Source: Nitrospirota bacterium
GTDB lineage: Bacteria > Nitrospirota > Thermodesulfovibrionia > Thermodesulfovibrionales > SM23-35
Direction: 5' to 3'
Length of the DNA stretch: 53,356 bases
Assembly: GCA_013388605.1 (NCBI GenBank)
Contig: JACAEY010000068.1
Span: 1 to 53,356, forward strand
In this document: one piece after another, positions 15,896 through 40,731 of the stretch
How the letters are laid out: each line of letters begins with the position of its first letter
How positions within the stretch are numbered: position 1 is the first letter of the stretch
Translations under genes and position numbers: made by a program
Notes under the pieces: model-generated
Database searches by the model: none
What the model was told of the DNA's origin: nothing
Seen by the model: only the letters and a program-made list of their open reading frames with translations

Positions 15896-16292
15896 TACGT
15901 CCTCCTTTTGCCCTTTCTATCAAGGTGGCAGCCATAAGGTCTAATAGCGAAACAACACCGATTATTTCCTTACCCTCATGGATAAATACCCTTGCAATAT
16001 TGAATTTATTCATTAAACTTATCACATGTTCTATCTCCATATCCTTATTGACACAAATAACTGGTTTCGATGCAATTACTTCCACACTTGTTTTACCCGG
16101 GTTAAGATTTTTACCAAGGACCTTAAAAACGATATCCCTCACAGTAACAACTCCATAGACATCTTTTTCATCCTTTGGTTTTACAAGTAAAGACCTGAGC
16201 CTTTTATCTACCATTTTTTCTATCGCATTATATACAGGGGCATCAGCCTCTACTGATTCTATCTTTTTAGTCATTATCTCCTCTATCTTCAT
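15888..16292 (-). CDS. CBS domain pair protein
   Basis: 134 aa with two CBS-like units (IMTKKIESV..., GVVTVRDI...; PVICVNKD..., IGVVSLLDL). Overlaps the DUF47 gene by 8 nt. Confidence 0.8.
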   Translation of the reverse strand: MKIEEIMTKKIESVEADAPVYNAIEKMVDKRLRSLLVKPKDEKDVYGVVTVRDIVFKVLGKNLNPGKTSVEVIASKPVICVNKDMEIEHVISLMNKFNIARVFIHEGKEIIGVVSLLDLMAATLIERAKGGRIA

Positions 16293-16404
16293 ATATTCCT
16301 CCTCCCAAATTTATAGTAGTTTAGCAAATCTAACTTTAATTGAATAGGAGTTTACATCAATACCTGAATTTTTTATAATCTTATATGACAAATAAGAATA
16401 TTTA

Positions 16405-16545
16405 TCCTATATTACGCAAGGGTGTAGCCGCAACCTTTAGGTTGCGTGGATTTATACAACCTTTAAACCACTTTTATGAGATTTAAAACGCATGCTAAAG
16501 CCTGCGGCTATAAGGGTTTTATAGTGAGCCTTGCGTAATTCGGGT
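16405..16545. repeat. MITE-like palindromic element, copy B (inverted relative to copy A)
   Basis: Reverse complement matches 7041..7181 (see copy A). It lies in the divergent intergenic region between the CBS gene and the Mth938-like gene. Confidence 0.8.
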
Positions 16546-16564
16546 TTATATATAGTGAAAAGCG

Positions 16565-16906
16565 ATGAAGGTTGAATATTACTCTTTTGGCACAATCACT
16601 ATTGATGGTAAGTCATATACTTCTGACGTTATAATCTATCCGAATAAGGTTGATTCTTCCTGGTGGAGAGAAAAGGGACATTCCCTTCACATTTCTGACC
16701 TTAAAAATATAATACCTGAAAATCCCGAAATACTTATCATAGGAACAGGTTTTTCAGGTGCAATGGTCGTCCCTGAAGAAACAGTTTCATATCTCAAATC
16801 AAAGGGCATTGATGTCCATATTGCCAGAACTGGTAAGGCTGTTGAGCTTTTTAATAAATTTCAGAAAGACAGAAAGACAATAGCTGCATTTCACTTAACC
16901 TGCTGA
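16565..16906 (+). CDS. Mth938-like (DUF498) domain protein
   Basis: 113 aa. FGTITIDGKSYTSDVIIYP...ILIIGTGFSG...SKGI.V....T..A.ELFN is typical of the family. Confidence 0.7.
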   Translation: MKVEYYSFGTITIDGKSYTSDVIIYPNKVDSSWWREKGHSLHISDLKNIIPENPEILIIGTGFSGAMVVPEETVSYLKSKGIDVHIARTGKAVELFNKFQKDRKTIAAFHLTC

Positions 16907-17569
16907 AAGTAACCTCTTAAATTCCTTAGAGACAAAATCTGCCCTTCTTAAGGGTTCTGGAACTCTGTATTTTTTTGCACAGGCAAGCGTGATATCAATA
17001 GAATTTTTGAGGTTAGTCCTGTGTCCCGGAGAGACAAAGAGTGGTCTGACACGATCTTTTGTCCTTAATACTACGCCAATAATCTTTCCTTTATGCCATA
17101 GATAAGACCAGCTTCCTTTTTTCTGTGCAGGTTCTTCATATTCACCTATCAGTCGTGATTTTGCACACCCTATAGTTGGGATGCCAAGAAGAATGCCAAT
17201 ATGTGTGGCTATACCCATTCTTGTTGGATGGGCAATTCCCTGTCCATCAAAGATTATGAGATCTGGTCTCTTCTTTAACCCACGGATTGCCCTGATAATA
17301 GCACGTCCTTCCCTGAAAGAAAGGAATCCTGGCACATAAGGGAAAAATTGTTTTGTTACTGAGATTGCCTCCTCTTTAAAAGTTAGTTCTGGATATGCAT
17401 AAAGGCATGCAACACCAATTACTAAATCACTTAAAAATGCTGCATCCACACCTGCAATTGTTTCCAGAGGTTCTCTTAGAGGGATTATTTCTATCTTCTT
17501 TCTCAGGATTTTCTGAATCTTCATTGCACCTTTGATGTCCCTTGGCCATCTCATAGATAAAGATAACAT
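16895..17569 (-). CDS. nfi: endonuclease V
   Basis: 224 aa with AGVDAAF and IFDGQGIAHPTRMGIATHIG motifs. The start may instead be an internal Met. Confidence 0.88.
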   Translation of the reverse strand: MLSLSMRWPRDIKGAMKIQKILRKKIEIIPLREPLETIAGVDAAFLSDLVIGVACLYAYPELTFKEEAISVTKQFFPYVPGFLSFREGRAIIRAIRGLKKRPDLIIFDGQGIAHPTRMGIATHIGILLGIPTIGCAKSRLIGEYEEPAQKKGSWSYLWHKGKIIGVVLRTKDRVRPLFVSPGHRTNLKNSIDITLACAKKYRVPEPLRRADFVSKEFKRLLSAG

Positions 17570-17591
17570 ACATTTATGTTAAAATTTTTCA

Positions 17592-18485
17592 ATGGATATA
17601 CATCAATTAAAGGTATTTACATCAGTTTTCAAAAACAGGAGCTTCTCAAAGGCATCAGAAGAACTTAACCTTACACAGCCAACCATAAGTGACCACATAA
17701 AGACACTTGAAGAAGAGCTTGATTGCAGACTCTTTGACAGGCTTGGAAGGATAATCATACCAACAAAAGAGGCAGAGGCTTTATATACCCATGCGATGGA
17801 AATTATAGAAAAAGCTAATATAACAAAAGACATAATCGGAAGATTTAAAAAAGAACTTACAGGAGAATTAGTTATTGGGGCAAGTACTATACCTGGCACA
17901 TATCTGATGCCTTCTCTAATAGCTACATTTCAGAGAAAACACCCCTCTGTTTCTTTCCAGATATTCATATCTGATTCAAAGGATATAGGTGAGAAGGTAC
18001 TGAAACACAAGATTCTTTTAGGAGTCGTTGGCACAAAATTTATTAATGGGGATATAAATCACATTCCCTTTGTCGAAGATGAATTAATTGTGGTATCTTC
18101 TCCCTCTTTGATTAAGAGCGACACGATAACTTTAAAAGATTTAATAAAGTTTCCAATGATACTAAGGGAAGAAGGTTCTGGAACAAGAAGAGAGCTTGAA
18201 AAGATCTTAGATTCAAAAGGTGTTACACTGGAAGATATTAAAATCGCTGGTGTATTTGGTTCAACAGATGCAGTAAAACAGGCTGTTAAAGCAGGACTTG
18301 GATTTTCAGTGCTATCAAAATTATCAGTAATTGATGAGTTAAAACATAAGATAGTTAAAGAGATCAAACTTACAGATATTCAGATGAAGAGGAAATTCTA
18401 TATAGTTATTCACAAAAAAAGAACCCTCCCACTTTTATATAGCAACTTTTTGGAACACCTTAAGGCTGAATCAAAAAAGATATAA
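17592..18485 (+). CDS. LysR-family transcriptional regulator, selenium-cluster associated by position
   Basis: 297 aa with the N-terminal wHTH FSKASEELNLTQPTISDHIKTLEEEL and a LysR substrate-binding fold. It lies 305 nt upstream of yedE, co-oriented. Confidence 0.85.
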   Translation: MDIHQLKVFTSVFKNRSFSKASEELNLTQPTISDHIKTLEEELDCRLFDRLGRIIIPTKEAEALYTHAMEIIEKANITKDIIGRFKKELTGELVIGASTIPGTYLMPSLIATFQRKHPSVSFQIFISDSKDIGEKVLKHKILLGVVGTKFINGDINHIPFVEDELIVVSSPSLIKSDTITLKDLIKFPMILREEGSGTRRELEKILDSKGVTLEDIKIAGVFGSTDAVKQAVKAGLGFSVLSKLSVIDELKHKIVKEIKLTDIQMKRKFYIVIHKKRTLPLLYSNFLEHLKAESKKI

Positions 18486-18554
18486 AAGTAAAAATCATTA
18501 TTTCGAAATATGCAACTGAATCGATTATACCTATCTCTCATGTTTTAGTGCTTT

Positions 18555-18660
18555 TTACTCAACTTATCTATAATTGCCTTTTTATTATTTTTAGAAAGCA
18601 AAAATCTATAAATTAAGTTATTACCATAGATATAATCAATTTGATTTATAGTTTTTTATT
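18555..18660 (+). repeat. 106-bp direct repeat R1 (shared upstream module of the yedE operon)
   Basis: ttactcaacttatctataattgcctttttattatttttagaaagcaaaaatctataaattaagttattaccatagatataatcaatttgatttatagttttttatt recurs at 21794..21900, differing by one substitution and one extra t. It contains a TATAAT hexamer and nested inverted repeats (ATCTAT-N16-ATAGAT and CTATAAAT...ATTTATAG). Confidence 0.9.
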
Positions 18661-18790
18661 ATTTATTATTTAAATATAGACAAAAAATTCTGAAATTTAA
18701 AATTAATTCATAATTTATAAGGAATTTATTTAAAACGAAAATATATAAAGTCTACTTATTTTACAAACACAAACATTAAAGGGGTTCTGA

Positions 18791-19882
18791 ATGGGCGTTA
18801 AGAATTTTTTTGGAACTTGCTTGGGTATTGTTCTGGTAGGTATTTTCATAGGTACTTTTGCTGCCTTACTTCAAAAATCGGGAAACCCAGCAAATATGGG
18901 TATTTGTGTCGCCTGTTTTGAAAGAGACATAGCAGGGGCTCTTGGGATACATAGGGCAGCTGTTGTCCAGTATATAAGACCTGAAATCATAGGTTTTGTC
19001 TTTGGCTCCTTAATTGCTGCATATGCTTTTAAGGAGTTTAGACCAAGGGTTGGTTCAGCCCCTATTGTCCGATTCGTTTTAGGATTTTTTGCAATGAGCG
19101 GTGCTCTTGTTTTTTTGGGTTGCCCGTGGCGTGCATTCCTCAGACTTGCAGGCGGAGATGGCAATGCCATCCTTGGTATTGCAGGGCTTGCTACTGGTGT
19201 AGCTGTAGGCGTTATCTTCTTAAAGAATGGATACAGTCTGGGAAGAAATCAAAAAACATTCACTTCAGTAGGCTGGATACTACCCCTTATCATGGCGAGT
19301 CTCTTTGCATTTCTGATCATTGCTCCCTTGATGGGCGATGGTGGTCAATCAGGTCCTATATTTTTCAGTGAAAATGGGCCTGGCTCAATGCATGCTCCTA
19401 TTGCAGTTTCTTTAATTGTTGGACTTCTTATAGGTTTCCTTGCACAGAGGACTCGATTTTGCACAATGGGTGCAATCAGGGATATTCTATTAATTAGAAA
19501 TTTTCATCTGGCAAGTGGAGTATTTGCTCTTTTAATTGCCGCCTTTATAACAAATCTCATATTAGGCCAATTTAAATTAGGATTTGCAGGTCAGCCGGTT
19601 GCCCATACCAACCACATCTGGAATTTTCTTGGAATGTCTTTAACGGGTCTCGCCTCTGCTCTTGCAGGAGGTTGTCCGGGTAGGCAATTATTCTTAGCAG
19701 GAGAGGGAGATGGTGATGCTGCTATATTTGTGCTTGGCATGATCTTTGGTGCCGGCTTTTCACATAATTTCTCACTTGCAAGCACTCCGGCTGGAATTGG
19801 TTTTTACGGGCCTCATGCTGTAATTATTGGAATCCTTGTATGCTTTTTTATAGGACTTACTATGCGAGAAAAAATAAAGTAA
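18791..19882 (+). CDS. yedE: YedE-family putative selenium/sulfur-compound transporter
   Basis: 363-aa polytopic protein with paired Cys-containing motifs (MGICVACFERD, RFCTMGAIRD, GGCPGRQ). A TusA-like gene follows it. Confidence 0.8.
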   Translation: MGVKNFFGTCLGIVLVGIFIGTFAALLQKSGNPANMGICVACFERDIAGALGIHRAAVVQYIRPEIIGFVFGSLIAAYAFKEFRPRVGSAPIVRFVLGFFAMSGALVFLGCPWRAFLRLAGGDGNAILGIAGLATGVAVGVIFLKNGYSLGRNQKTFTSVGWILPLIMASLFAFLIIAPLMGDGGQSGPIFFSENGPGSMHAPIAVSLIVGLLIGFLAQRTRFCTMGAIRDILLIRNFHLASGVFALLIAAFITNLILGQFKLGFAGQPVAHTNHIWNFLGMSLTGLASALAGGCPGRQLFLAGEGDGDAAIFVLGMIFGAGFSHNFSLASTPAGIGFYGPHAVIIGILVCFFIGLTMREKIK

Positions 19883-19891
19883 GAAGGTTTT

Positions 19892-20113
19892 ATGGGTGAA
19901 CAAGTTGACGCAAGAGGGCTTTCATGTCCCCAGCCAGTTATATTGACACATAATAAGATGAAGGTGCTTAGGAAAGGTGTCTTTGAGGTGCTGGTTGATA
20001 CTGATACTTCACGTGAAAATATAAGTCGCCTTGCAAAAAATGAAGGCTGGGAAATTATAGATACTAAAAAAACAGAGGATTCAGGATACATCCTGACTCT
20101 TAGGAAAGAATAA
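19892..20113 (+). CDS. TusA/SirA-like sulfur(selenium) carrier protein
   Basis: 73 aa with the DARGLSCPQP (CPxP) motif. Confidence 0.85.
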   Translation: MGEQVDARGLSCPQPVILTHNKMKVLRKGVFEVLVDTDTSRENISRLAKNEGWEIIDTKKTEDSGYILTLRKE

Positions 20114-20115
20114 AT

Positions 20116-20646
20116 TTGCCCTTAATTAAATCTAAAAAAGAAGAAAAAAAACCCGATAGAGGGTTCCTGGTATTTCACAATACGAGTGATGTAATTAGAG
20201 CAGAAAAGATCTTGAAAAAAGAGGGATTTAAAATCCGAGTTATGGGACCTCCTCCAGAGCATCGCAGGGGATGCGATCTTGTTATTGAATTCCCTTTAAT
20301 CGAACAACTTAATATTCTAAGGATTCTTGAGAAGAAAAGTACCCCACCAATTGATGCAGTTCCTGTAGATAATCCCCTACTCAAACCAATAGAAATTGTT
20401 AAAACCAAAGATTTTGGGAAATATATAATGGTAAGAGCAGCAAACATGAAAATGACCGTAGAAAAAAGTACTTTGAAAATTGTTAATATTTCTGGAGGTG
20501 GTTGTCCTGATGTACCTTATCTGGCTGAGAAGCTAATTGGGAAAACCCTTAAAGAGGCACCTGAACCAAAGCAGATTGGACATACTCTTTGTGCTTATGC
20601 TTTACATATAGCTTATGAGGAGATGACAAAGAGATGCTTGCTTTGA
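20116..20646 (+). CDS. DUF3343 domain protein with Cys-containing C-terminal extension (IscU/NifU-like signature)
   Basis: 176 aa with a TTG start 2 nt after the upstream stop. The N-terminal half GFLVFHNTSDVIRAEKILKKEGFKIRVMGPPPEHRRGCDLVIEF matches the DUF3343 pattern. The C-terminal half carries ISGGGCPDVPYLAEKLIGKTLKEA...GHTLCAYALHIA. Confidence 0.65.
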   Translation: MPLIKSKKEEKKPDRGFLVFHNTSDVIRAEKILKKEGFKIRVMGPPPEHRRGCDLVIEFPLIEQLNILRILEKKSTPPIDAVPVDNPLLKPIEIVKTKDFGKYIMVRAANMKMTVEKSTLKIVNISGGGCPDVPYLAEKLIGKTLKEAPEPKQIGHTLCAYALHIAYEEMTKRCLL

Positions 20647-21530
20647 TTGGTACAATCCCTTATGACGGCTTTCCCATTCTTTCAGGAGAAATTTCTGTTA
20701 AAAACAGTAATATTTTAATTGGGGAAAAGTCTTTTCAGATTAAGAGAGGGTTTAAAGCCATGATAGGTGCTGCATCAATAGTTTGCAAAGAGCTGAGTCT
20801 TTTTCCTCCAACAGCATTTACTGCAGGGGATATTGGGCTAGGTGATGGCAGCAAAAGACTCTATGAACATCTGAGGAATCAACTTAGTGGAATTCAAGTT
20901 TCAGTCCTAACCTTTCACTATCTTATGCCTGATATATTCTGGCATGATCAGATCATTAAAGCTATTGAAGAGATGTCAAAAAAGCCTATACTTATTGCAG
21001 ATGCAGGATTTATGTATGTAGCCAAGATGAGTGGTTTTGCACCTTTTTATGATCTTTTTACACCAGATATAGGAGAACTTGCTTTTTTAGCTGATGAGTT
21101 AGCTCCTCATCCTTTTTACACAAGAGGTTTTATCTGTCATGAAGAAAATAACGTCCCATCCTTAATCTCAAGGGCATATAAAAGTGAAAACGCCTCAAAG
21201 TTTTTGATAGTAAAAGGGGAAAATGACTACATATGCAGTAATGGAGAAATAATAGCTATTATTAAAGAACCTAATGTAGAGACATTAGAACCCATAGGAG
21301 GGACTGGTGATACTTTAACGGGCATTGTATCAGCACTTGTATATAGTGGTTATGCCATTGAGGACGCAGCAGTAATGGCTGCAATAATTAACCGCCTGGC
21401 AGGAGAGCTTGCTAATCCTTCGCCAAGTACACAGGTTTCAGAAATAATTTCATACATACCAAAGGCACTCTCTATTGTTCTGAAAAGTTTAGATAAAAAG
21501 AATAATGAAATTCATGTTAAAGGAAATTAA
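20634..21530 (+). CDS. ribokinase-fold protein, YjeF_C/NnrD-like (function unknown)
   Basis: 298 aa. PILIADAGFMY...FTPDIGELAFL...LIVKGENDYI...PIGGTGDTLTGIVSAL...AA..A...AG follows the order of motifs in ADP/ATP-dependent NAD(P)HX dehydratase-type kinases. Overlaps the upstream gene by 13 nt. Confidence 0.6.
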   Translation: MLALIGTIPYDGFPILSGEISVKNSNILIGEKSFQIKRGFKAMIGAASIVCKELSLFPPTAFTAGDIGLGDGSKRLYEHLRNQLSGIQVSVLTFHYLMPDIFWHDQIIKAIEEMSKKPILIADAGFMYVAKMSGFAPFYDLFTPDIGELAFLADELAPHPFYTRGFICHEENNVPSLISRAYKSENASKFLIVKGENDYICSNGEIIAIIKEPNVETLEPIGGTGDTLTGIVSALVYSGYAIEDAAVMAAIINRLAGELANPSPSTQVSEIISYIPKALSIVLKSLDKKNNEIHVKGN

Positions 21531-21720
21531 CCTAACTGAAAAAGTAAAGGCCTCCGGTTGAGCGGCTAAACTAAGCCTAGGGACTGAGCGAGGTTATGGC
21601 AGATTTGCTGTAATAAAGCACCCAAACTTCACAATAGTTTATGAGACTTCCGATGATGCTGGAGCCTATAAGCTGGGTTCAAGACTCTTAAATGAGGCAT
21701 TAGCCCTTATGTATGTGCTG
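21506..21720 (+). pseudogene. decayed 5' fragment of a selD gene retaining the in-frame TGA
   Basis: Frame A from the ATG at 21506 gives MKFMLKEINLTEK, then a TAA. Frame A-1 from 21541 gives KVKASG-TGA(21559-21561)-AAKLSLG...KHPNFTIVYETSDDAGAYKLG. Compare intact SelD: MKVKNSVKLSEKVRAAG-TGA-ASKISPL...KHPDLLVGIETSDDAGVYRL. There is a 1-nt frameshift near 21541, and no similarity after about 21720. Confidence 0.75.
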
Positions 21721-21793
21721 TCTAAGTCAGGGAAGGTTAATTTTTTCAAGATGCTTAAAACAGCCATAACATGTTTCCAGAAGAAACATCTTG

Positions 21794-21900
21794 TTACTCA
21801 ACTTATCTATAATTGCCTTTTTATTATTTTTAAAAAGCAAAAATCTATAAATTAAGTTATTACCATAGATATAATCAATTTGATTTATAGTTTTTTTATT
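21794..21900 (+). repeat. 106-bp direct repeat R2 (shared upstream module of selD)
   Basis: Near-identical copy of 18555..18660. Weaker similarity continues to the start codons. The yedE leader reads ttttacaaacac...taaaggggttctgaATG and the selD leader reads ttttacaaatat...taaagagaaggggttcttacttaaATG. Confidence 0.9.
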
Positions 21901-21991
21901 TTTTAAAATTATAAAAAATGGGTGGAAAAATTGTAGAAATACCTTTTACAAATATCGGTTCTAAATTTAAAGAGAAGGGGTTCTTACTTAA

Positions 21992-23041
21992 ATGAAAGTG
22001 AAAAACTCAGTAAAATTATCTGAAAAGGTTCGCGCTGCTGGTTGAGCTTCAAAAATAAGTCCGTTGGACTTAACAGAGATTCTCAACTGCCTTACTTTCG
22101 ATAAACATCCTGATCTCCTTGTAGGTATAGAGACGTCGGATGATGCAGGCGTATATCGTCTCACACCTGAAATAGCACTCATACAGACACTGGATTTCTT
22201 CACCCCGATTGTCAATGATCCTTATGATTTTGGAAGAATAGCAGCGACAAATGCATTCAGTGATGTCTATGCAATGGGCGGAAAACCTCTCACTGCGATG
22301 AATATTGTATGTTTCCCAATAAAAGAACTCGACAAAGATACTCTACGTGCTATCCTTCAAGGAGGGCTTGAGGTAATCCATAAAGCAGGTGCGGTTATGG
22401 TAGGGGGTCATAGTGTTGAGGACCGTGAGCTGAAATATGGTCTTTCAGTTACGGGCATTGTTCACCCTGATAAAATCTTGACTAATGCAGGTGCAAAACC
22501 GGGCGATCTATTGATTCTAACAAAACCTCTTGGAACAGGTATCTTATCAACTGCTTTAAAAGGTGGAAAACTAAATGAAAAACAGACTTGTAACCTTACA
22601 GAATTGATGGCTACATTAAATAAAGATGCTGCTGAGGTGATGACCGATATAGGAGTTAATGCATGCACTGATATCACTGGTTTTGGACTTCTCGGTCATG
22701 CCTTAGAAATTGCAAAGGCAAGTAATGTCAGTATCCGTATTTATTCAGATAAGGTCCCTGTAATTTCTGATGCCATAGAATTTGCATCTATGGGAATGAT
22801 ACCTGAAGGTAGCCATTTGAACCAGAAATTTTGTCGTCAATACCTTGATATTTCTCCTGAATTAGACCCAATCACAGGAGATATTCTCGCCGACGCACAG
22901 ACCTCAGGTGGTCTCTTGATATCTGTTCCCGAGGAAAAGTCTAAACAACTTTTAAATGGGCTTATTGAACGAAAAACACCTGCTGCAAAAGTAATAGGGG
23001 AGGTTTTCAGCGAACCGAAAGGGGTTATACAGATAAGGTGA
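21992..23041 (+). CDS. selD: selenide, water dikinase SelD, selenocysteine-containing (UGA at 22043-22045)
   Basis: The track ORF 22064..23041 extends in frame upstream through a single TGA to the ATG at 21992, which is preceded by aagggg. The N-terminus MKVKNSVKLSEKVRAAG-U-ASKISPLDL places U where SelD has its catalytic Cys/Sec, three residues before the conserved Lys. The rest is typical SelD (ETSDDAGVY, FFTPIV, GGHSVED). Confidence 0.88.
22056..22072 (+). promoter_or_regulatory. SECIS-like hairpin downstream of the selD UGA
   Basis: taagtcc-gtt-ggactta forms a 7-bp stem with a GUU loop. It starts 10-11 nt after the UGA, the spacing expected for bacterial SECIS elements. Confidence 0.5.
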
Positions 23042-23078
23042 TAATTTTGTTTACCTGACCATGAAGGAGTTAAATACG

Positions 23079-23669
23079 ATGATCGTTGATGCAAGAGGAT
23101 ATGGATGTCCAAAGCCTGTTCTCATGGCGGAAGAGGCATTATCAAAAATAACAGAAGGCGGGATAGAAATACTCGTTGATAACGAGGCATCTGCAAATAA
23201 TCTTAAGAGGTTTGCAGCAAAGAACAATTTCTATTCAGATGTAATTAAAGAAGAAAATTTCTGGTGTGTCAGGATTGTCAAAGGATATGTCTGTGAGATA
23301 CCTGCGGAGGAGTACAAAGAAAAGAAACCTGGTAAAGACTTATTTCTTGTCATTGCTACAGATACAATAGGCAAAGAGGAAGAACTTGGCAGAATACTTA
23401 TGAAGGCATACTTTGAGACAATGAAAGCATATAAAGAGCTACCAGATGCAATATTCTTTTTGAACACAGGGGTGAAAATTACTACAGTAGATAATGAAAT
23501 ACTTCCAATAATCAAAGAAATTGAAGAAATGGGAGTAGAAATCTTTACCTGTGGCACATGCCTTAAGTTCTTTAATCTCGAATCAGAACTTAAGGTTGGG
23601 TTCAGGGGAACAACAAATCATCTTGTAGAAGGTATTAAAGAGTTTAAAAAGACTGTATGGGTTGGATAA
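23079..23669 (+). CDS. yedF: YedF-type selenium metabolism protein (TusA-like N-domain + DsrE-like C-domain)
   Basis: MIVDARGYGCPKPVLMA (CPxP), then a DsrE-like half ending in TCGTCLKF. AAGGAG lies 9 nt upstream of the ATG at 23079. An alternative in-frame ATG is at 23061. Confidence 0.8.
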   Translation: MIVDARGYGCPKPVLMAEEALSKITEGGIEILVDNEASANNLKRFAAKNNFYSDVIKEENFWCVRIVKGYVCEIPAEEYKEKKPGKDLFLVIATDTIGKEEELGRILMKAYFETMKAYKELPDAIFFLNTGVKITTVDNEILPIIKEIEEMGVEIFTCGTCLKFFNLESELKVGFRGTTNHLVEGIKEFKKTVWVG

Positions 23670-24007
23670 TTTCTTAACGTGGTTATCTATCCTTTGCCAA
23701 ATATATGACACAGTTTTTTATCAGATATGAGAGATTTCAAAAAGAAAGGAAAAGCTCGACATTAACTTTTTCAAAAAGGCTTGATAGTTATCCAGGGCAA
23801 TTTTAGTCTGATTAATTTTGATTTTTCCATTATGTGATTTTCTTTCTCTGTCACCGACACCATCCAGAATTATTAAGATACAGCGCATAACATTGTATAA
23901 CATTTTGGAGATATTATTTCTAACCGATATAAATGGTATATTCAAAATGATTTTTGCAATTAAGAAAAGAACACAAAAATTCTATTATTTTCATATATAA
24001 TTTTTTT

Positions 24008-37674: not shown

Positions 37675-40600
37675 TCACCTCCCTTTACCTTTTGCAGGTA
37701 GTTTTTCTACATTGACCAGAAATGCCTTATATTCTGGGATTGCAGTATTAGCATCACCAATAGTGGGAGTGAGAAGATTAGCACTTTCCCCTTCATCCTT
37801 TGGTACAAGCCATCCATAATGAAACGTCATCCCTACCTCATGTATCGTCAGACCGGCAACTTTAAGGGGTTTCCAGCGCTTGGTAACCATGGCTACTGCT
37901 TCCACTTTTCCTCTCGGAGATGAAACTAAAACACGATCTCCGTTTTTGATTCCCCTGAGCTCAGCAAGCTCCTCGCTCAACTCAACATACATCTGGGGCT
38001 CTGTCTCCAAAAGCCAGGGCTGGTATCTGGTCATCAAACCCGTCTGCCAGTGTTCTGTAACCCTATATGTCGTTGCAACAAACGGGTATCTTGGATCACA
38101 AGTGGTGAATTTATAATCCTTGAAGAGAGCTGTTGTAGGGTTAATCCTCTGTGAAGAGAGTGGGTTCTTTTCAATCGGGCATTCCAGTGGTTCATAATGT
38201 TCAGGAAATGGCCCGTCAGCCATACCAGGACCAAAGATTGAGGCTACTCCATCAGGCTTCATTATAAAAGGTAATTTCCCTCCTTCAAGACCCATTGGAG
38301 GTGCGGGCCCATCCGGCACATCTCCAACCCATTTCTTCTCTGTTGCATCCCATTTTATAACTGCTCTCTTTGTATCTAAGGGATTCCCTTGTAAATCAAC
38401 AGAGGCACGGTTATAAATGATTCTGCGATTAACAGGCCAAGCCCAGGCCCACTTTGGAAATATGTTTGCCGTAGCAAGTGGGGTCTTATCCCTTCTTGCC
38501 ATCATGTTACCAGCCTCAGTGTAGCTACCAGAGTATATCCAGTTACCACTGGATGTACGGCCATCAGCAAGGAGAAACAGAAAAGATGGAACCAGTGTTC
38601 CTTTCTTGTAAGCTTTCTTATCAAATGGATGTTCTGGTATATCCTCAAGGAAGTAACCATTGATATCCTTTGCAACCAGATGAAAATCAACCTTTCCTGC
38701 TTTTTCATAGTCCCATTTAAGTTTTAGAATCGGATCAGGAAATGCACCCTTTTCCTTCTCATAAAGAGCTTTCACTTCCATATAAATTTCATGGATTATC
38801 TGGCCATCAGATTTTGATCCACCAATTGGGTCTATAGCCTTGTAACGCCACTGTGCTGTTCGAGCGCTATCTGATAAACTTCCTTCTTTTTCAACATAAC
38901 TACAGGATGGGAGCAGAAAGACTTCTGTTTTAACCTCCTTCGGCTCCATCCCTGGACCCTTCCAGAAGTTTGTTGTCTCACTCTCAAAGATATCAACTGC
39001 AACCATCCAATCCAGTTTTGAAAGTGCCTCCCTTGACCGATTTGCATTAGGGAGGCTACAAGCAGGGTTCATACCAAGGCAGATGAAACCAGAGAACTTC
39101 TCTTTAAGTATTTCATCGAACATAAATAGAAATGAGGCATTCTGGCCATCATCTAACTTTGGCAACCATTGATAACCGAATCCGTTTTCTTTTGTTGCAT
39201 TCTCGCCATACATGGACTTTAGAAAACTCACAATATACTTTGGTCTGTTTCCCCACCAGTTTACGCTCCGAGGTTCTGCTGTCTTGGGAGTATTCTTTTC
39301 ATTATAATTCTCGAGACTGACATCGGAGGACCTGGGGGATGGATTGTACCCTGGTAGAATATGAAAAAGTAGTGCATGATCTGATATACCTTGAACATTA
39401 GATTCACCTCTGAGGGCGTTCACGCCACCTCCGGCTAACCCCATGTTGCCGAGAAGCAATTGAACAATAGATGCTGCACGGATGTTCTGAGTGCCCACAG
39501 TATGCTGTGTCCAGCCCATTGCATAAAGAACCGTCCCAACCTTGTCAGGTTTGCATGTTGCAGCATAGGCTTCATAAACTTTAATCAGATCTTCCTTTGG
39601 CGTCCCTGTAATATTTGAAATAGTATCTAAGTCATAGCGTGAATAAAATTTTTTCATGAGCTGATAAACACACCGCTCGTTCTGAAGAGATGGATCTTTC
39701 TTAGGAATTCCTTTCTCGTCCTTTTCAAAAGCCCAAAAAGATTTATCGTATGACCTCTTTTCTGGATTATATCCTGAGAAAAGTCCATCTTTAAAATCAT
39801 ATTTTGGATTAACAATAAAGGAAGCATTGGTATTATTAATAACATAGTCTTTCTGAATAAGGTCTTTCTCAAGGATATAATTGATCATACCACCAAGAAA
39901 TGCGATATCCGTCCCTGAGCGAAGAGGCGCATAAATATCTGCTTTGGCTGATGTCCGAGTAAACCTCGGATCAACATGTATTATTTTCCCTCCCATGTCT
40001 TTTGCCCTGAGAATCCATTTCATTGCTACGGGATGGTTTTCTGCAGGATTGCTCCCACAGATTAAAACACAGTCGCTGACACCTATATCTGTCCAGCTAT
40101 TGGTCATTGCCCCGCGACCAAACGACTCTGCCAGAGCCGCTACAGTGGGGCTGTGTCAGAGACGCGCCTCGAATTCTATATAGACTATGCCAAGAGAACG
40201 AAGAAATTTCTGATAAAGCCAGCCTTCTTCATTATTAATATGGGCACTACCTATTGCGGCTATGCCGTTACAACGATTAACCACCTCTCCTTTAGCATTT
40301 TTCTCAACAAAGCTCTTATCTCTGCTCTTTTTAATCCTCTTCGCAATTTCCTTCAGTGCCCACTCCCAGGACTTTTTCTCCCATTTAGAACTATATGGTG
40401 CACGATACATGACATTCTTAAGCCGCTTTGTATTGGTAACCAATCCATAAGTAGATGCACCTTTGGCACAAAGAGAGCCCTCGCTTGTTGGATGATCAGG
40501 ATCGCCTTCGATATTGATAACCTTTCCTCCGCTTGTATGAACAATCTGTCCGCAACCTACTGAACAGTAACAACAAATGGATGTCGTCTCCTTTGCATCT

Positions 40601-40731
40601 TTGATCCTGAGCTCAGCAGCATAAGACTGAACAGGGGTTAGGTCAAGTCCAAGCTGGCTTAAGGCTACCCCTGCTACAGTAGCCCCGGAAATCTTAATAA
40701 AATCCCTTCTTGTAATCTTCATAAGCTTCAA
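37675..40731 (-). CDS. fdhA: formate dehydrogenase catalytic (alpha) subunit, selenocysteine-containing (UGA at 40156-40158), Tat-exported
   Basis: Track ORFs 40156..40731 and 37675..40107 are one gene in a single frame. The junction reads IEFEARL-U-HSPTVAALAESFGRGAMTNSW, the conserved Sec site of FdnG/FdhA. Tat signal is ITRRDFIK. The N-terminal 4Fe-4S motif is CCYCSVGCG. Total length is 1018 codons. Confidence 0.92.
40123..40139 (-). promoter_or_regulatory. SECIS-like hairpin downstream of the fdhA UGA
   Basis: The mRNA sequence cggcucu-ggc-agagucg forms a 7-bp stem including one G-U pair, with a GGC loop. It begins 16 nt after the UGA. Confidence 0.45.

What the first reader, a model, noticed from the sequence alone, without database searches (positions are those of the whole stretch)
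18555..21991. Near-identical 106-bp module plus diverged leader duplicated upstream of yedE and selD, adjacent to the LysR gene
Seen: 18555..18660 and 21794..21900 differ by one substitution and one extra t. The flanking DNA is much more diverged. Weaker collinear similarity continues to both start codons (ttttacaaa...taaag..ggggttct..ATG).

The module contains a TATAAT hexamer and nested dyads (ATCTAT-N16-ATAGAT and CTATAAAT...ATTTATAG). These resemble LysR-type T-N11-A/dyad operators.

Inference: the two selenium transcription units may share a promoter/operator (or 5' leader RNA element), probably read by the neighbouring LysR regulator. The 98% identity against a diverged background points to selection or gene conversion. 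A selenium-responsive cis element of this kind is not established.
Basis: partly seen in the sequence, partly recalled or inferred. Interest (0 to 1): 0.6.

Follow-up and report, generated by a model that had tools for sequence, protein, structure and literature searches.

The report
Shared selenium-regulon promoter and operator
The two near-identical 106-bp stretches are copies of a promoter with a built-in regulator binding site that recurs in front of selenium genes in this bacterial order and two other phyla, nearly always beside one LysR-type regulator gene, so they give that predicted selenium regulator a concrete, testable DNA target.

Summary
Window 18555-18660 and 21794-21900 differ by one substitution (G18594/A21833) and one extra T. 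They are the only two full copies in the 1.68-Mb genome.

The conserved part is a 46-bp core, CTAT-N16-ATAG-N7-C(A/T)AT-N7-ATAG, at 18606-18651 and 21845-21890. A -35-like TTGATT lies inside it and a -10-like hexamer follows 17-18 nt later.

The same core occurs in many Thermodesulfovibrionales genomes, and in Desulfobulbaceae and one Planctomycetales MAG. It always points at a downstream selenium-linked gene: yedE, selD, yedF, selB, fdnG, a mauE-rhodanese pair, an HGD-D/activase pair, or a selC-like tRNA. It often sits within a few hundred bp of the selenium-associated LysR gene (NF040786). In this window that gene is 17592-18485.

The fixed-length, sequence-variable spacer, the lack of covariation and a predicted start site downstream of the core all argue for a DNA operator, not an RNA leader.

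The 98% identity is best explained by recent gene conversion or duplication on top of selection. The weak "collinear leader similarity" is not significant. The selD leader is instead a 25-codon remnant of a deleted mauE gene.

Binding, start sites and selenium response remain untested. I found no published bacterial LysR_Se operator; earlier notes of this scan reported a similar module in another genome.

The parts
17592..18485 (+). LysR_Se gene (selenium metabolism-associated LysR-family regulator), candidate reader of the operator
   Evidence: NCBIfam NF040786 at 306 bits (cut-off 250) and Pfam HTH_1 + LysR_substrate. Orthologues at 60-76% identity sit next to the motif in many relatives.
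18555..18660 (+). Module copy a (near-identical tract) upstream of yedE
18606..18651 (+). Conserved operator core a: CTAT (18606-09), N16, ATAG (18626-29), N7, CAAT (18637-40), N7, ATAG (18648-51)
   Evidence: Exact pattern match. Consensus of 40 non-redundant sites.
18641..18669 (+). Predicted sigma-70-type promoter a: -35 TTGATT (18641-46), 17-nt spacer, -10 TATTAT (18664-69). Predicted start near 18676-18678, giving a 5' UTR of about 113-115 nt.
   Evidence: Promoter scan. Start position inferred from relatives, where leaderless ATGs or a tRNA 5' end lie 24-32 nt after the last ATAG. Not mapped.
18791..21530 (+). Operon a: yedE (18791-19882), tusA/yedF-like (19892-20113), Se_S_carrier/DUF3343 (20116-20646), Carb_kinase-like (20634-21530)
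   Evidence: Pfam and NCBIfam: TIGR04112 seleno_YedE at 492 bits.
21514..21700 (+). Decayed N-terminal remnant of an operon-type selD that keeps its in-frame TGA. It lies between operon a and module b.
   Evidence: Translation. G009:C30 keeps an intact yedE...selD operon whose selD is 71% identical to the window's selD.
21794..21900 (+). Module copy b (near-identical tract) upstream of selD
   Evidence: Its 5' flank and module are orthologous to the mauE promoter of the same-genus genome G001 (74% over 205 nt).
21845..21890 (+). Conserved operator core b: CTAT (21845-48), N16, ATAG (21865-68), N7, CAAT (21876-79), N7, ATAG (21887-90)
21880..21909 (+). Predicted promoter b: -35 TTGATT (21880-85), 18-nt spacer, -10 TAAAAT (21904-09). 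Predicted start near 21916-21918.
   Evidence: Promoter scan. Start position inferred as for copy a.
21918..21995 (+). 25-codon remnant of the head of a mauE-like gene (MGGKIVEIPFTNIGSKFKEKGFLLK*). Its TGA overlaps the selD ATG (ATGA). Probably a leaderless mini-ORF.
   Evidence: Homology to the mauE 5' ends of G001 and G009: 0/1000 shuffles reach the score. BLAST alignment.
21992..23669 (+). Operon b: selD (21992-23041, Sec codon TGA 22043-22045) and yedF (23061-23669)
   Evidence: TIGR03527 selenium_YedF at 192 bits.

Best explanation
Each module is an activator-type promoter with an embedded operator for the neighbouring selenium-associated LysR regulator (LysR_Se).

**Architecture.** Four phased tetranucleotide half-sites, CTAT-N16-ATAG-N7-C(A/T)AT-N7-ATAG, span about -70 to -25. 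Their start-to-start spacing is 20, 11 and 11 bp, so they lie on one face of the helix. The last dyad overlaps a -35-like TTGATT, and a -10-like hexamer follows 17-18 nt later.

**Proposed action.** A LysR_Se tetramer bound here would set transcription of the yedE operon and of selD-yedF according to selenium status. It would do so as part of a wider regulon.

**Shown.** The repeat, the conserved motif and its fixed geometry, its orientation towards selenium genes, its adjacency to LysR_Se genes, and the absence of RNA covariation.

**Inferred.** The start site (from leaderless ATGs and tRNA 5' ends in relatives), binding by LysR_Se, and response to selenium. The sign of regulation and the effector are unknown.

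**Why the copies are 98% identical.** A recent gene conversion or duplication copied the selD-type module (b, at the orthologous position) over the yedE promoter (a).
For: **1. Conservation.**
- BLAST with the yedE upstream region finds the core at 76-86% identity in other genera of the family.
- The exact pattern occurs in 13 of 57 family genomes (18 sites); the reversed control gives 0.
- A sequence-only model hits 41 of 57 family genomes at E<=0.01. It also hits six other families of the order.
- Across 185,579 species genomes the exact pattern occurs in only 43 stretches. About 35 are Nitrospirota. The rest include Desulfobulbaceae/Deltaproteobacteria MAGs and a Planctomycetales MAG.

**2. 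Selenium association.** Genes downstream, in the motif's orientation:
- mauE + rhodanese (21 sites)
- yedE (8), yedF (7), selB (6), and selD in the window
- HGD-D-family protein + BcrAD-type ATPase (7)
- a Sec-truncated fdnG, and tRNA-Sec-like genes

**3. Link to LysR_Se.**
- The best-scoring NF040786 paralogue lies 37-460 bp from a motif in at least 11 family genomes and in 5 of 5 tested genomes of other families.
- It is divergent at 53 bp in two Desulfobacterota MAGs.
- The gene driven by the motif differs among these loci, so the adjacency is not simply inherited synteny.
- Motif-adjacent LysRs share QPT(I/V)S(D/E/N)HI in the recognition helix. The non-adjacent paralogue has QPAVSLQI.

**4. 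DNA, not RNA.**
- The N16 spacer keeps its length but not its sequence.
- There is no covariation for either helix and no Rfam match.
- The hairpin is specific to this genome (z -3.7 here; +0.5 to -2.75 with differing folds in relatives).

**5. Promoter geometry.**
- TTGATT-17-TATTAT and TTGATT-18-TAAAAT are picked up by the scan.
- In relatives, ATGs without a Shine-Dalgarno sequence lie 24-32 nt after the last ATAG.
- tRNA 5' ends lie 25-30 nt after it in 7 of 9 loci. Both place +1 about 26 nt after the core.
- The span of about -70 to -25 and the T-N11-A-type dyads match the 50-60 bp RBS+ABS layout of LysR-type regulators (PMC8407307).

**6. Conversion.**
- The 5' 45 nt of the module are not conserved outside the genus, yet differ at only one base between a and b.
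- Copy b is only 74% identical to its orthologue in same-genus G001, and its homology there extends beyond the a/b boundary on both sides.
- Copy a carries the TTATAG-type 3' end. yedE promoters of other genera carry CATATTG.
Against: - No binding, footprint, start-site or expression data exist.
- NF040786 members are present in all 57 family genomes with 2-5 paralogues each. Presence/absence therefore gives no discrimination, and the responsible paralogue is inferred from adjacency only.
- Many LysR_Se orthologue loci show no detectable motif nearby. G009's intact yedE operon also lacks a recognisable one.
- The pattern and models were built from the hits themselves, so the invariance of the core is partly ascertainment.
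- Promoter-like hexamers are not enriched over shuffles in this AT-rich region (13 found against 11.3 expected).
- CTAT-N16-ATAG is not a canonical LysR-type box.
- Downstream genes were assigned by naive ORF calling on MAG contigs.
Confidence: 0.75

Rival explanations
1. The module is a conserved promoter/operator of the selenium regulon, but it is read by a regulator other than the adjacent LysR_Se. That could be the second LysR_Se paralogue or an unrelated factor. The adjacency would then reflect clustering of selenium genes only.
For: Every genome has 2-5 NF040786 paralogues. Many motif sites are far from any lysR gene. The N16 half-site spacing is atypical for LysR-type regulators.
Against: The motif lies within 37-460 bp of the same orthologue group in more than 16 genomes of at least 5 families, and in Desulfobacterota, with different target genes. 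Divergent arrangements 44-100 bp from the lysR start are typical for LysR-type regulators. ATAG-N7-CTAT is a T-N11-A-type box. The recognition helix is conserved among adjacent LysRs.
Confidence: 0.12
2. The module acts as RNA. It would be either a structured 5' leader or riboswitch-like element of the two operons, or a weak intrinsic terminator (AU hairpin plus U-run) for the upstream genes, lysR and the kinase-like gene.
For: In this genome the core folds into a long hairpin (-12.4 kcal/mol, z -3.7) followed by a T-run. The module often lies just downstream of lysR on the same strand.
Against: There is no covariation and no Rfam match. In 8 relatives the folds differ and are unremarkable. 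The terminator scan finds nothing there and the stem has a single G-C pair. The core also occurs far from lysR. It ends only about 25 nt before leaderless ATGs or tRNA 5' ends, so it lies upstream of the inferred start.
Confidence: 0.06
3. The repeat is only a recent segmental duplication or a small mobile repeat with no regulatory role. Its identity would reflect youth alone.
For: The 5' 45 nt are not conserved outside the genus yet are nearly identical between the copies. The region shows rearrangement scars: a selD remnant and a mauE remnant.
Against: There are only two copies, with no terminal repeats or target duplications. The 46-bp core is conserved across families and phyla in the same orientation before selenium genes.
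Confidence: 0.04

Closest known systems
Operators of LysR-type transcriptional regulators (RBS + ABS layout, T-N11-A box; for example BenM/CatM sites ATAC-N7-GTAT, from my own knowledge; general description in PMC8407307)
   Same: The conserved region of about 50 bp runs from about -70 to the -35. It contains 15-bp dyads with 4-bp arms and a 7-bp spacer (ATAG-N7-CTAT, which holds T-N11-A). The last dyad overlaps the -35. The regulator gene is adjacent or divergent. In some relatives a further CTAT lies over the -10 region, like an ABS-10 or 'site 3'.
   Different: The most upstream half-site is 20 bp rather than 11 bp from the next (CTAT-N16-ATAG). The best dyad is centred near -43 rather than -65. 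Binding has not been shown. lysR is more often upstream on the same strand than divergent.
LysR_Se / HrsM (Lin et al. 2015, PMC5322559; archaeal HrsM of Methanococcus, cited in PMC11097638 and PMC9312934)
   Same: The window's regulator is a member of this family (NF040786 above its cut-off). The family was predicted from gene neighbourhood to regulate selenium genes. Archaeal HrsM binds the frc-vhc intergenic region. yedE mRNA rises on selenium starvation in M. maripaludis (PMC11097638).
   Different: I found no bacterial binding site, regulon or target promoter described in the papers I could search. Here a specific operator and a target set are proposed. HrsM acts as a repressor of Cys-isoform genes, whereas these targets are selenium uptake and activation genes.
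   Same: It reaches the same kind of conclusion: a promoter-plus-operator module before selD and a selC-like tRNA-Cys, present in several phyla.
   Different: It is an AI note, not a publication. Its sequence was not shown to me and a sequence look-up found no look-alike, so I cannot say the motifs are the same.

Membership tests
LysR-type regulator-controlled promoter (RBS + ABS operator) | Dyad-symmetric LTTR box(es) containing T-N11-A | tested here: met
   ATAG-N7-C(A/T)AT and C(A/T)AT-N7-ATAG at 18626-18651 and 21865-21890, conserved in 40 non-redundant sites.
LysR-type regulator-controlled promoter (RBS + ABS operator) | Protected or conserved region of about 50-60 bp from about -65/-70 to the -35/-10 of the target promoter | tested here: inconclusive
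   The 46-bp core plus an A-tract spans about -75 to -25 relative to a start site. That start is only inferred, from leaderless ATGs and tRNA 5' ends in relatives. No mapped start exists.
LysR-type regulator-controlled promoter (RBS + ABS operator) | Cognate LTTR gene adjacent to, and often divergent from, the regulated promoter | tested here: met
   lysR ends at 18485, 120 bp before core a. The same adjacency is seen in at least 16 other genomes, and it is divergent in G015, G064, G022 and two Desulfobacterota MAGs.
LysR-type regulator-controlled promoter (RBS + ABS operator) | Specific binding of the LTTR protein, modulated by an effector | not testable with these tools
   Needs EMSA, footprinting or DAP-seq.
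LysR_Se (NCBIfam NF040786, selenium metabolism-associated LysR) | Score above the curated cut-off of the equivalog model, plus a selenium gene neighbourhood | tested here: met
   306.1 bits against a cut-off of 250. Followed by yedE...selD-yedF.
Riboswitch or structured 5' leader RNA | Conserved secondary structure supported by covariation | tested here: not met
   Covariation is no better than shuffles for both candidate helices. Folds differ among relatives. No Rfam match at E<=1.
Intrinsic terminator | G+C-rich stem-loop directly followed by a U-run | tested here: not met
   A U-run is present, but the stem is A-U apart from one C-G pair, the scan does not call it, and the hairpin is not conserved.
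Intergenic repeat or MITE | Many dispersed copies with terminal inverted repeats or target duplications | tested here: not met
   Two copies plus one weak partial site in 1.68 Mb.

The most novel reading that the evidence does not exclude
The module is the operator of a bacterial selenium regulon governed by LysR_Se and conserved across phyla. Its targets would define the cell's selenium acquisition and activation set. Besides yedE, yedF, selD and selB, that set includes genes not so far tied to selenium: a MauE-family membrane protein paired with a periplasmic rhodanese, an HGD-D-family (double-cubane-type) protein with its BcrAD-type ATPase, TonB-system and porin genes, and the selC-like tRNA-Cys.
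Probability: 0.6. Interest if true: 0.72.

Novelty: new member of a known kind. Interest (0 to 1): 0.6.

Why it matters
How bacteria sense selenium and control its uptake and activation is largely unknown. LysR_Se was predicted in 2015 from gene neighbourhood alone, and I found no described DNA target or regulon for it in bacteria.

A defined 46-bp operator with fixed geometry makes the regulator directly testable by EMSA, DAP-seq and reporter fusions. It also allows the regulon to be read from genomes.

That reading already nominates new selenium-linked genes: mauE-rhodanese, an HGD-D/activase pair, TonB-dependent uptake, and a selC-like tRNA-Cys. In addition, it predicts leaderless or near-leaderless transcripts from these promoters.

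For this genome it explains how two adjacent selenium operons are co-regulated after a rearrangement that deleted mauE-rhodanese and one selD copy.

Tried and rejected
- **Rfam.** A scan of 16000-24000 at E<=1 gave nothing.
- **RNA structure.** Two candidate helices showed no covariation (my first attempt was off by one column). Folds of 8 relatives were not conserved.
- **Terminator reading.** Not called by the scan.
- **Leader similarity between a and b.** Not significant. Leader a against the mauE 5' ends is only suggestive: 22/1000 shuffles against G009 and 121/1000 against G001.
- **Phylogenetic profile of LysR_Se against the motif.** Uninformative, because all 57 genomes carry the family.
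- **G009's yedE operon.** I looked for a motif upstream and found only a degenerate resemblance.
- **Own genome.** It lacks mauE and rhodanese. Its fdnG (window about 40159-40722, minus strand) has no motif.
- **Earlier findings by sequence.** The look-up returned nothing.
- **Likely artefacts among the global hits.** The Marivirga match looks like chance inside coding DNA. The 'Edwardsbacteria' match is identical to the G015 site and is probably a mis-binned contig.


Full report
**1. The observation**

Reading the window, the repeat finder and a pairwise alignment confirm the repeat. Positions 18555-18660 and 21794-21900 are identical except for G18594 against A21833 and a T-run of six against seven.

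The upstream flanks are unrelated: local alignment does no better than shuffles, 993/2000. A search of the whole 1.68-Mb assembly (97% complete) finds only these two copies. nhmmer adds one weak, truncated site on contig C136. The module is therefore not a dispersed repeat.

- The alignment score is reached by 310/2000 dinucleotide shuffles.
- Three or more shared 9-mers occur in 419/5000 shuffles.

**2. Surroundings**

| Coordinates | Gene | Evidence |
|---|---|---|
| 17592-18485 | LysR-family regulator | NCBIfam NF040786 'selenium metabolism-associated LysR', 306 bits against a cut-off of 250 |
| 18791-19882 | yedE | |
| 19892-20113 | tusA/yedF-like | |
| 20116-20646 | Se_S_carrier (DUF3343) | |
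| 20634-21530 | Carb_kinase-like | |
| 21992-23041 | selD, Sec codon at 22043-22045 | |
| 23061-23669 | yedF | |

NF040786 corresponds to the LysR_Se family that Lin et al. 2015 predicted from gene neighbourhood (PMC5322559). Module a precedes the yedE operon and module b precedes selD-yedF.

Between the two units lies a decayed selD N-terminus that still carries its TGA (21514 to about 21700). By the titles of related records, the genome is an uncultured member of the Thermodesulfovibrionales in the Nitrospirota.

**3. The module is conserved elsewhere, and only part of it**

BLAST of the yedE upstream region against 40 relatives hit the 3' two-thirds of the module at 76-86% identity in other genera. 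Aligned copies share AAAAAT-CTAT-N16-ATAG-N7-C(A/T)AT-TTGA(A/C/T)T-TATAG.

- The exact pattern occurs in 13 of 57 genomes of the family (18 sites). The reversed control gives none.
- A sequence-only covariance model hits 41 of 57 at E<=0.01. It also hits six other families of the order.
- Across one genome for each of 185,579 species, a slightly relaxed exact pattern occurs in only 43 stretches. About 35 are Nitrospirota. Four or five are Desulfobulbaceae/Deltaproteobacteria MAGs and one is a Planctomycetales MAG.
- A consensus from 40 non-redundant sites shows information concentrated in CTAT, tATAGA, CTATTTGA and TTATaG. The N16 spacer keeps its length but not its sequence.

**4. What lies downstream of the motif**

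In every case the motif points towards the downstream gene. Clustering the first genes downstream and annotating representatives gives:

| Downstream gene(s) | Sites |
|---|---|
| MauE-family membrane protein + periplasmic rhodanese | 21 |
| yedE | 8 |
| yedF | 7 |
| HGD-D-family protein + BcrAD/BadFG-type ATPase | 7 |
| selB | 6 |
| selD | the window |
| Single cases: Sec-truncated fdnG, HdrD-like proteins, a CCG-VTT(DedA) fusion, a TonB-dependent receptor, a porin, a radical-SAM protein | one each |

In other families of the order, the motif is followed 25-30 nt later by a tRNA-Sec-like gene in 7 of 9 loci. Rfam RF01852 scores these at 32-61 bits. ARAGORN calls four of them tRNA-Cys(GCA) of 90-99 nt. 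The association with selenium metabolism is therefore strong.

**5. Which regulator**

NF040786 members occur in all 57 family genomes with 2-5 paralogues each, so presence and absence are uninformative. Position is informative.

- The best-scoring paralogue group, to which the window's gene belongs, lies 37-460 bp from a motif in at least 11 family genomes.
- About 21 of 80 orthologue loci fetched independently have a motif close by. Most are 20-250 bp after the stop on the same strand; some are divergent.
- All five genomes tested from other families show the adjacency.
- In two Desulfobacterota MAGs the motif is divergent, 53 bp from the lysR start.
- The gene driven by the adjacent motif varies: yedE, mauE, selB, fdnG, hdrD-like or the tRNA. 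The adjacency is thus not just inherited synteny of one operon.
- Motif-adjacent LysRs from three phyla share QPT(I/V)S(D/E/N)HI in the recognition helix. The window genome's second paralogue reads QPAVSLQI. This is a small sample and only suggestive.

**6. DNA site, not RNA**

- Neither candidate helix (CTATAAAT/ATTTATAG or CTAT/ATAG) shows covariation beyond shuffles.
- Rfam finds nothing.
- The long A-U hairpin predicted here (-12.4 kcal/mol, z -3.7) is not reproduced in eight relatives. Their folds differ and have z from +0.5 to -2.75.
- The terminator scan does not call it.

**7. Promoter geometry**

The conserved TTGA(A/C/T)T is a -35-like hexamer. The consensus scan pairs it with TATTAT (18664-18669, spacer 17) and TAAAAT (21904-21909, spacer 18). 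Such hexamers are common in this AT-rich DNA (13 found against 11.3 expected), so the scan alone proves little.

The stronger argument comes from relatives.
- mauE start codons without a Shine-Dalgarno sequence lie 24-32 nt after the last ATAG in several genera.
- tRNA 5' ends lie 25-30 nt after it.

Both place +1 about 26 nt after the core. The core then spans about -70 to -25. Four half-sites have start-to-start spacings of 20, 11 and 11 bp, on one helical face, and the last dyad lies over the -35. ATAG-N7-CTAT and CTAT-N7-ATAG are T-N11-A-type boxes. The 50-60 bp RBS+ABS layout from about -65 to the -35/-10 is the textbook arrangement for LysR-type regulators (PMC8407307).

Some relatives (yedE- and tRNA-type sites) carry a fifth CTAT 11 bp further on, over the -10 region.

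It is spacer sequence of the central dyad.

**8. Why the two copies are 98% identical**

- The 5' 45 nt of the module (18555 to about 18600) are not conserved in other genera.
- Copy b aligns with the mauE promoter of the same-genus genome G001 at only 74% over 205 nt. That homology runs past both ends of the a/b identity. Copy b is therefore at the ancestral position, and the a/b identity is far younger than the genus.
- Copy a has the TTATAG-type 3' end, whereas yedE promoters in other genera end in CATATTG.

The simplest reading is a recent gene conversion or duplication that wrote the b-type module over the yedE promoter, with purifying selection acting on the 46-bp core.

**9. History of the locus**

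- In G001 the operon is motif-mauE-rhodanese-selD, presumably followed by yedF, which I did not confirm there.
- In G009 the same unit carries a truncated selD, while a separate intact yedE...selD operon exists.
- In the window genome mauE and rhodanese are absent.

The selD 'leader' (21918-21995) is a 25-codon remnant of the mauE head, MGGKIVEIPFTNIGSKFKEKGFLLK*. Its homology to the mauE 5' ends of G001 and G009 is reached by 0/1000 shuffles. Its TGA overlaps the selD ATG (ATGA). Its own ATG lies 9 nt after the -10, so the transcript is probably leaderless and selD may be translationally coupled to this mini-ORF.

Leader a shows only weak similarity to mauE heads (22/1000 against G009 and 121/1000 against G001). 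The operon-type selD survives only as the remnant at 21514-21700.

**10. Comparison with what is known, and limits**

The literature I could search predicts LysR_Se (PMC5322559, PMC9312934). It also documents archaeal HrsM binding the frc-vhc intergenic region and yedE induction on selenium starvation in M. maripaludis (PMC11097638). It describes no bacterial operator or regulon.

Earlier AI notes of this scan reported a comparable LysR_Se promoter-operator module in another genome, and a selC-like tRNA-Cys sharing it. I could not compare sequences. My own results independently agree with both points.

Nothing here shows binding, the start sites, the effector or the sign of regulation. Models were built from their own hits, targets were called with a naive ORF finder on MAG contigs, and many LysR_Se loci lack a detectable site.

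**Verdict**

The finding is a real and functionally coherent cis-element. It is most likely (about 0.75) the operator-promoter of LysR_Se. It is a new member of a known kind, of moderate to high interest because it makes the bacterial selenium regulator and its regulon directly testable.

Noticed in passing
window 21918-21995: A 25-codon ORF (MGGKIVEIPFTNIGSKFKEKGFLLK*) is the remnant head of a deleted mauE-like gene. Its stop overlaps the selD start (ATGA) and its ATG lies 9 nt after the predicted -10. This suggests a leaderless mini-ORF translationally coupled to selD.
   Followed up: yes
window 21514-21700: A decayed N-terminal fragment of a second, operon-type selD keeps the in-frame TGA (...KASG-U-AAKLS...ETSDDAGAYK). 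G009:C30 still has the intact yedE...selD operon. The window's full selD belongs to the other lineage (83-87% to the truncated copy on G009:C8, 71% to the G009:C30 copy).
   Followed up: partly
L182-L195 (other families of the order; for example G030:C1:1469781-1469980): lysR_Se, then the motif, then a tRNA-Sec-like gene 25-30 nt later (Rfam RF01852; ARAGORN calls four of them tRNA-Cys GCA, 90-99 nt), followed in at least three of these loci (L182, L185, L195) by a YeeE/YedE-like transporter. This resembles the selC-like tRNA-Cys class.
   Followed up: partly
relatives, for example L023 8112-9165 (G009:C8) and L047, L050, L054: The commonest gene pair behind the motif is a MauE-family membrane protein plus a signal-peptide rhodanese related to the N-terminus of selenoprotein TsoB (NF045694). 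Neither is an established selenium gene. The window genome lacks both.
   Followed up: partly
relatives L076, L077, L092, L093, L222, L209: An HGD-D-family protein (431 aa) with a BcrAD/BadFG-type ATPase (about 248 aa) recurs behind the motif in Nitrospirota, Desulfobulbaceae and a Planctomycetales MAG. It is a candidate ATP-driven reductase of the selenium regulon.
   Followed up: no
own genome contig C136:9871-9916 (L085 1566-1625): A weak, shortened copy of the motif (the spacing between the 5' CTAT and the CAAT is 6 nt too short) lies 102 nt upstream of a TonB-family gene (C136:10019-10882). In G007 a full motif precedes a TonB-dependent receptor, and in G006 a weak one precedes an Alginate_exp-type porin.
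   Followed up: partly
G049 contigs C9, C10, C11 (L030, L041, L045): Three nearly identical copies of motif + mauE lie on three contigs. One mauE is frameshifted and one neighbouring lysR carries stop codons (2 TGA, 4 TAA). This is either segmental duplication or strain heterogeneity in the MAG.
   Followed up: no
G004:C154:6562-6736 (L024): Two motif copies lie back to back on opposite strands, 17 bp apart. They drive an HdrD-like gene and selB in one direction and a yedF-remnant/yedE unit in the other.
   Followed up: no
window about 40159-40722 (minus strand): An fdnG-type formate dehydrogenase N-terminus (82% to the G064 gene that carries a motif) has no detectable motif upstream in this genome.
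   Followed up: partly
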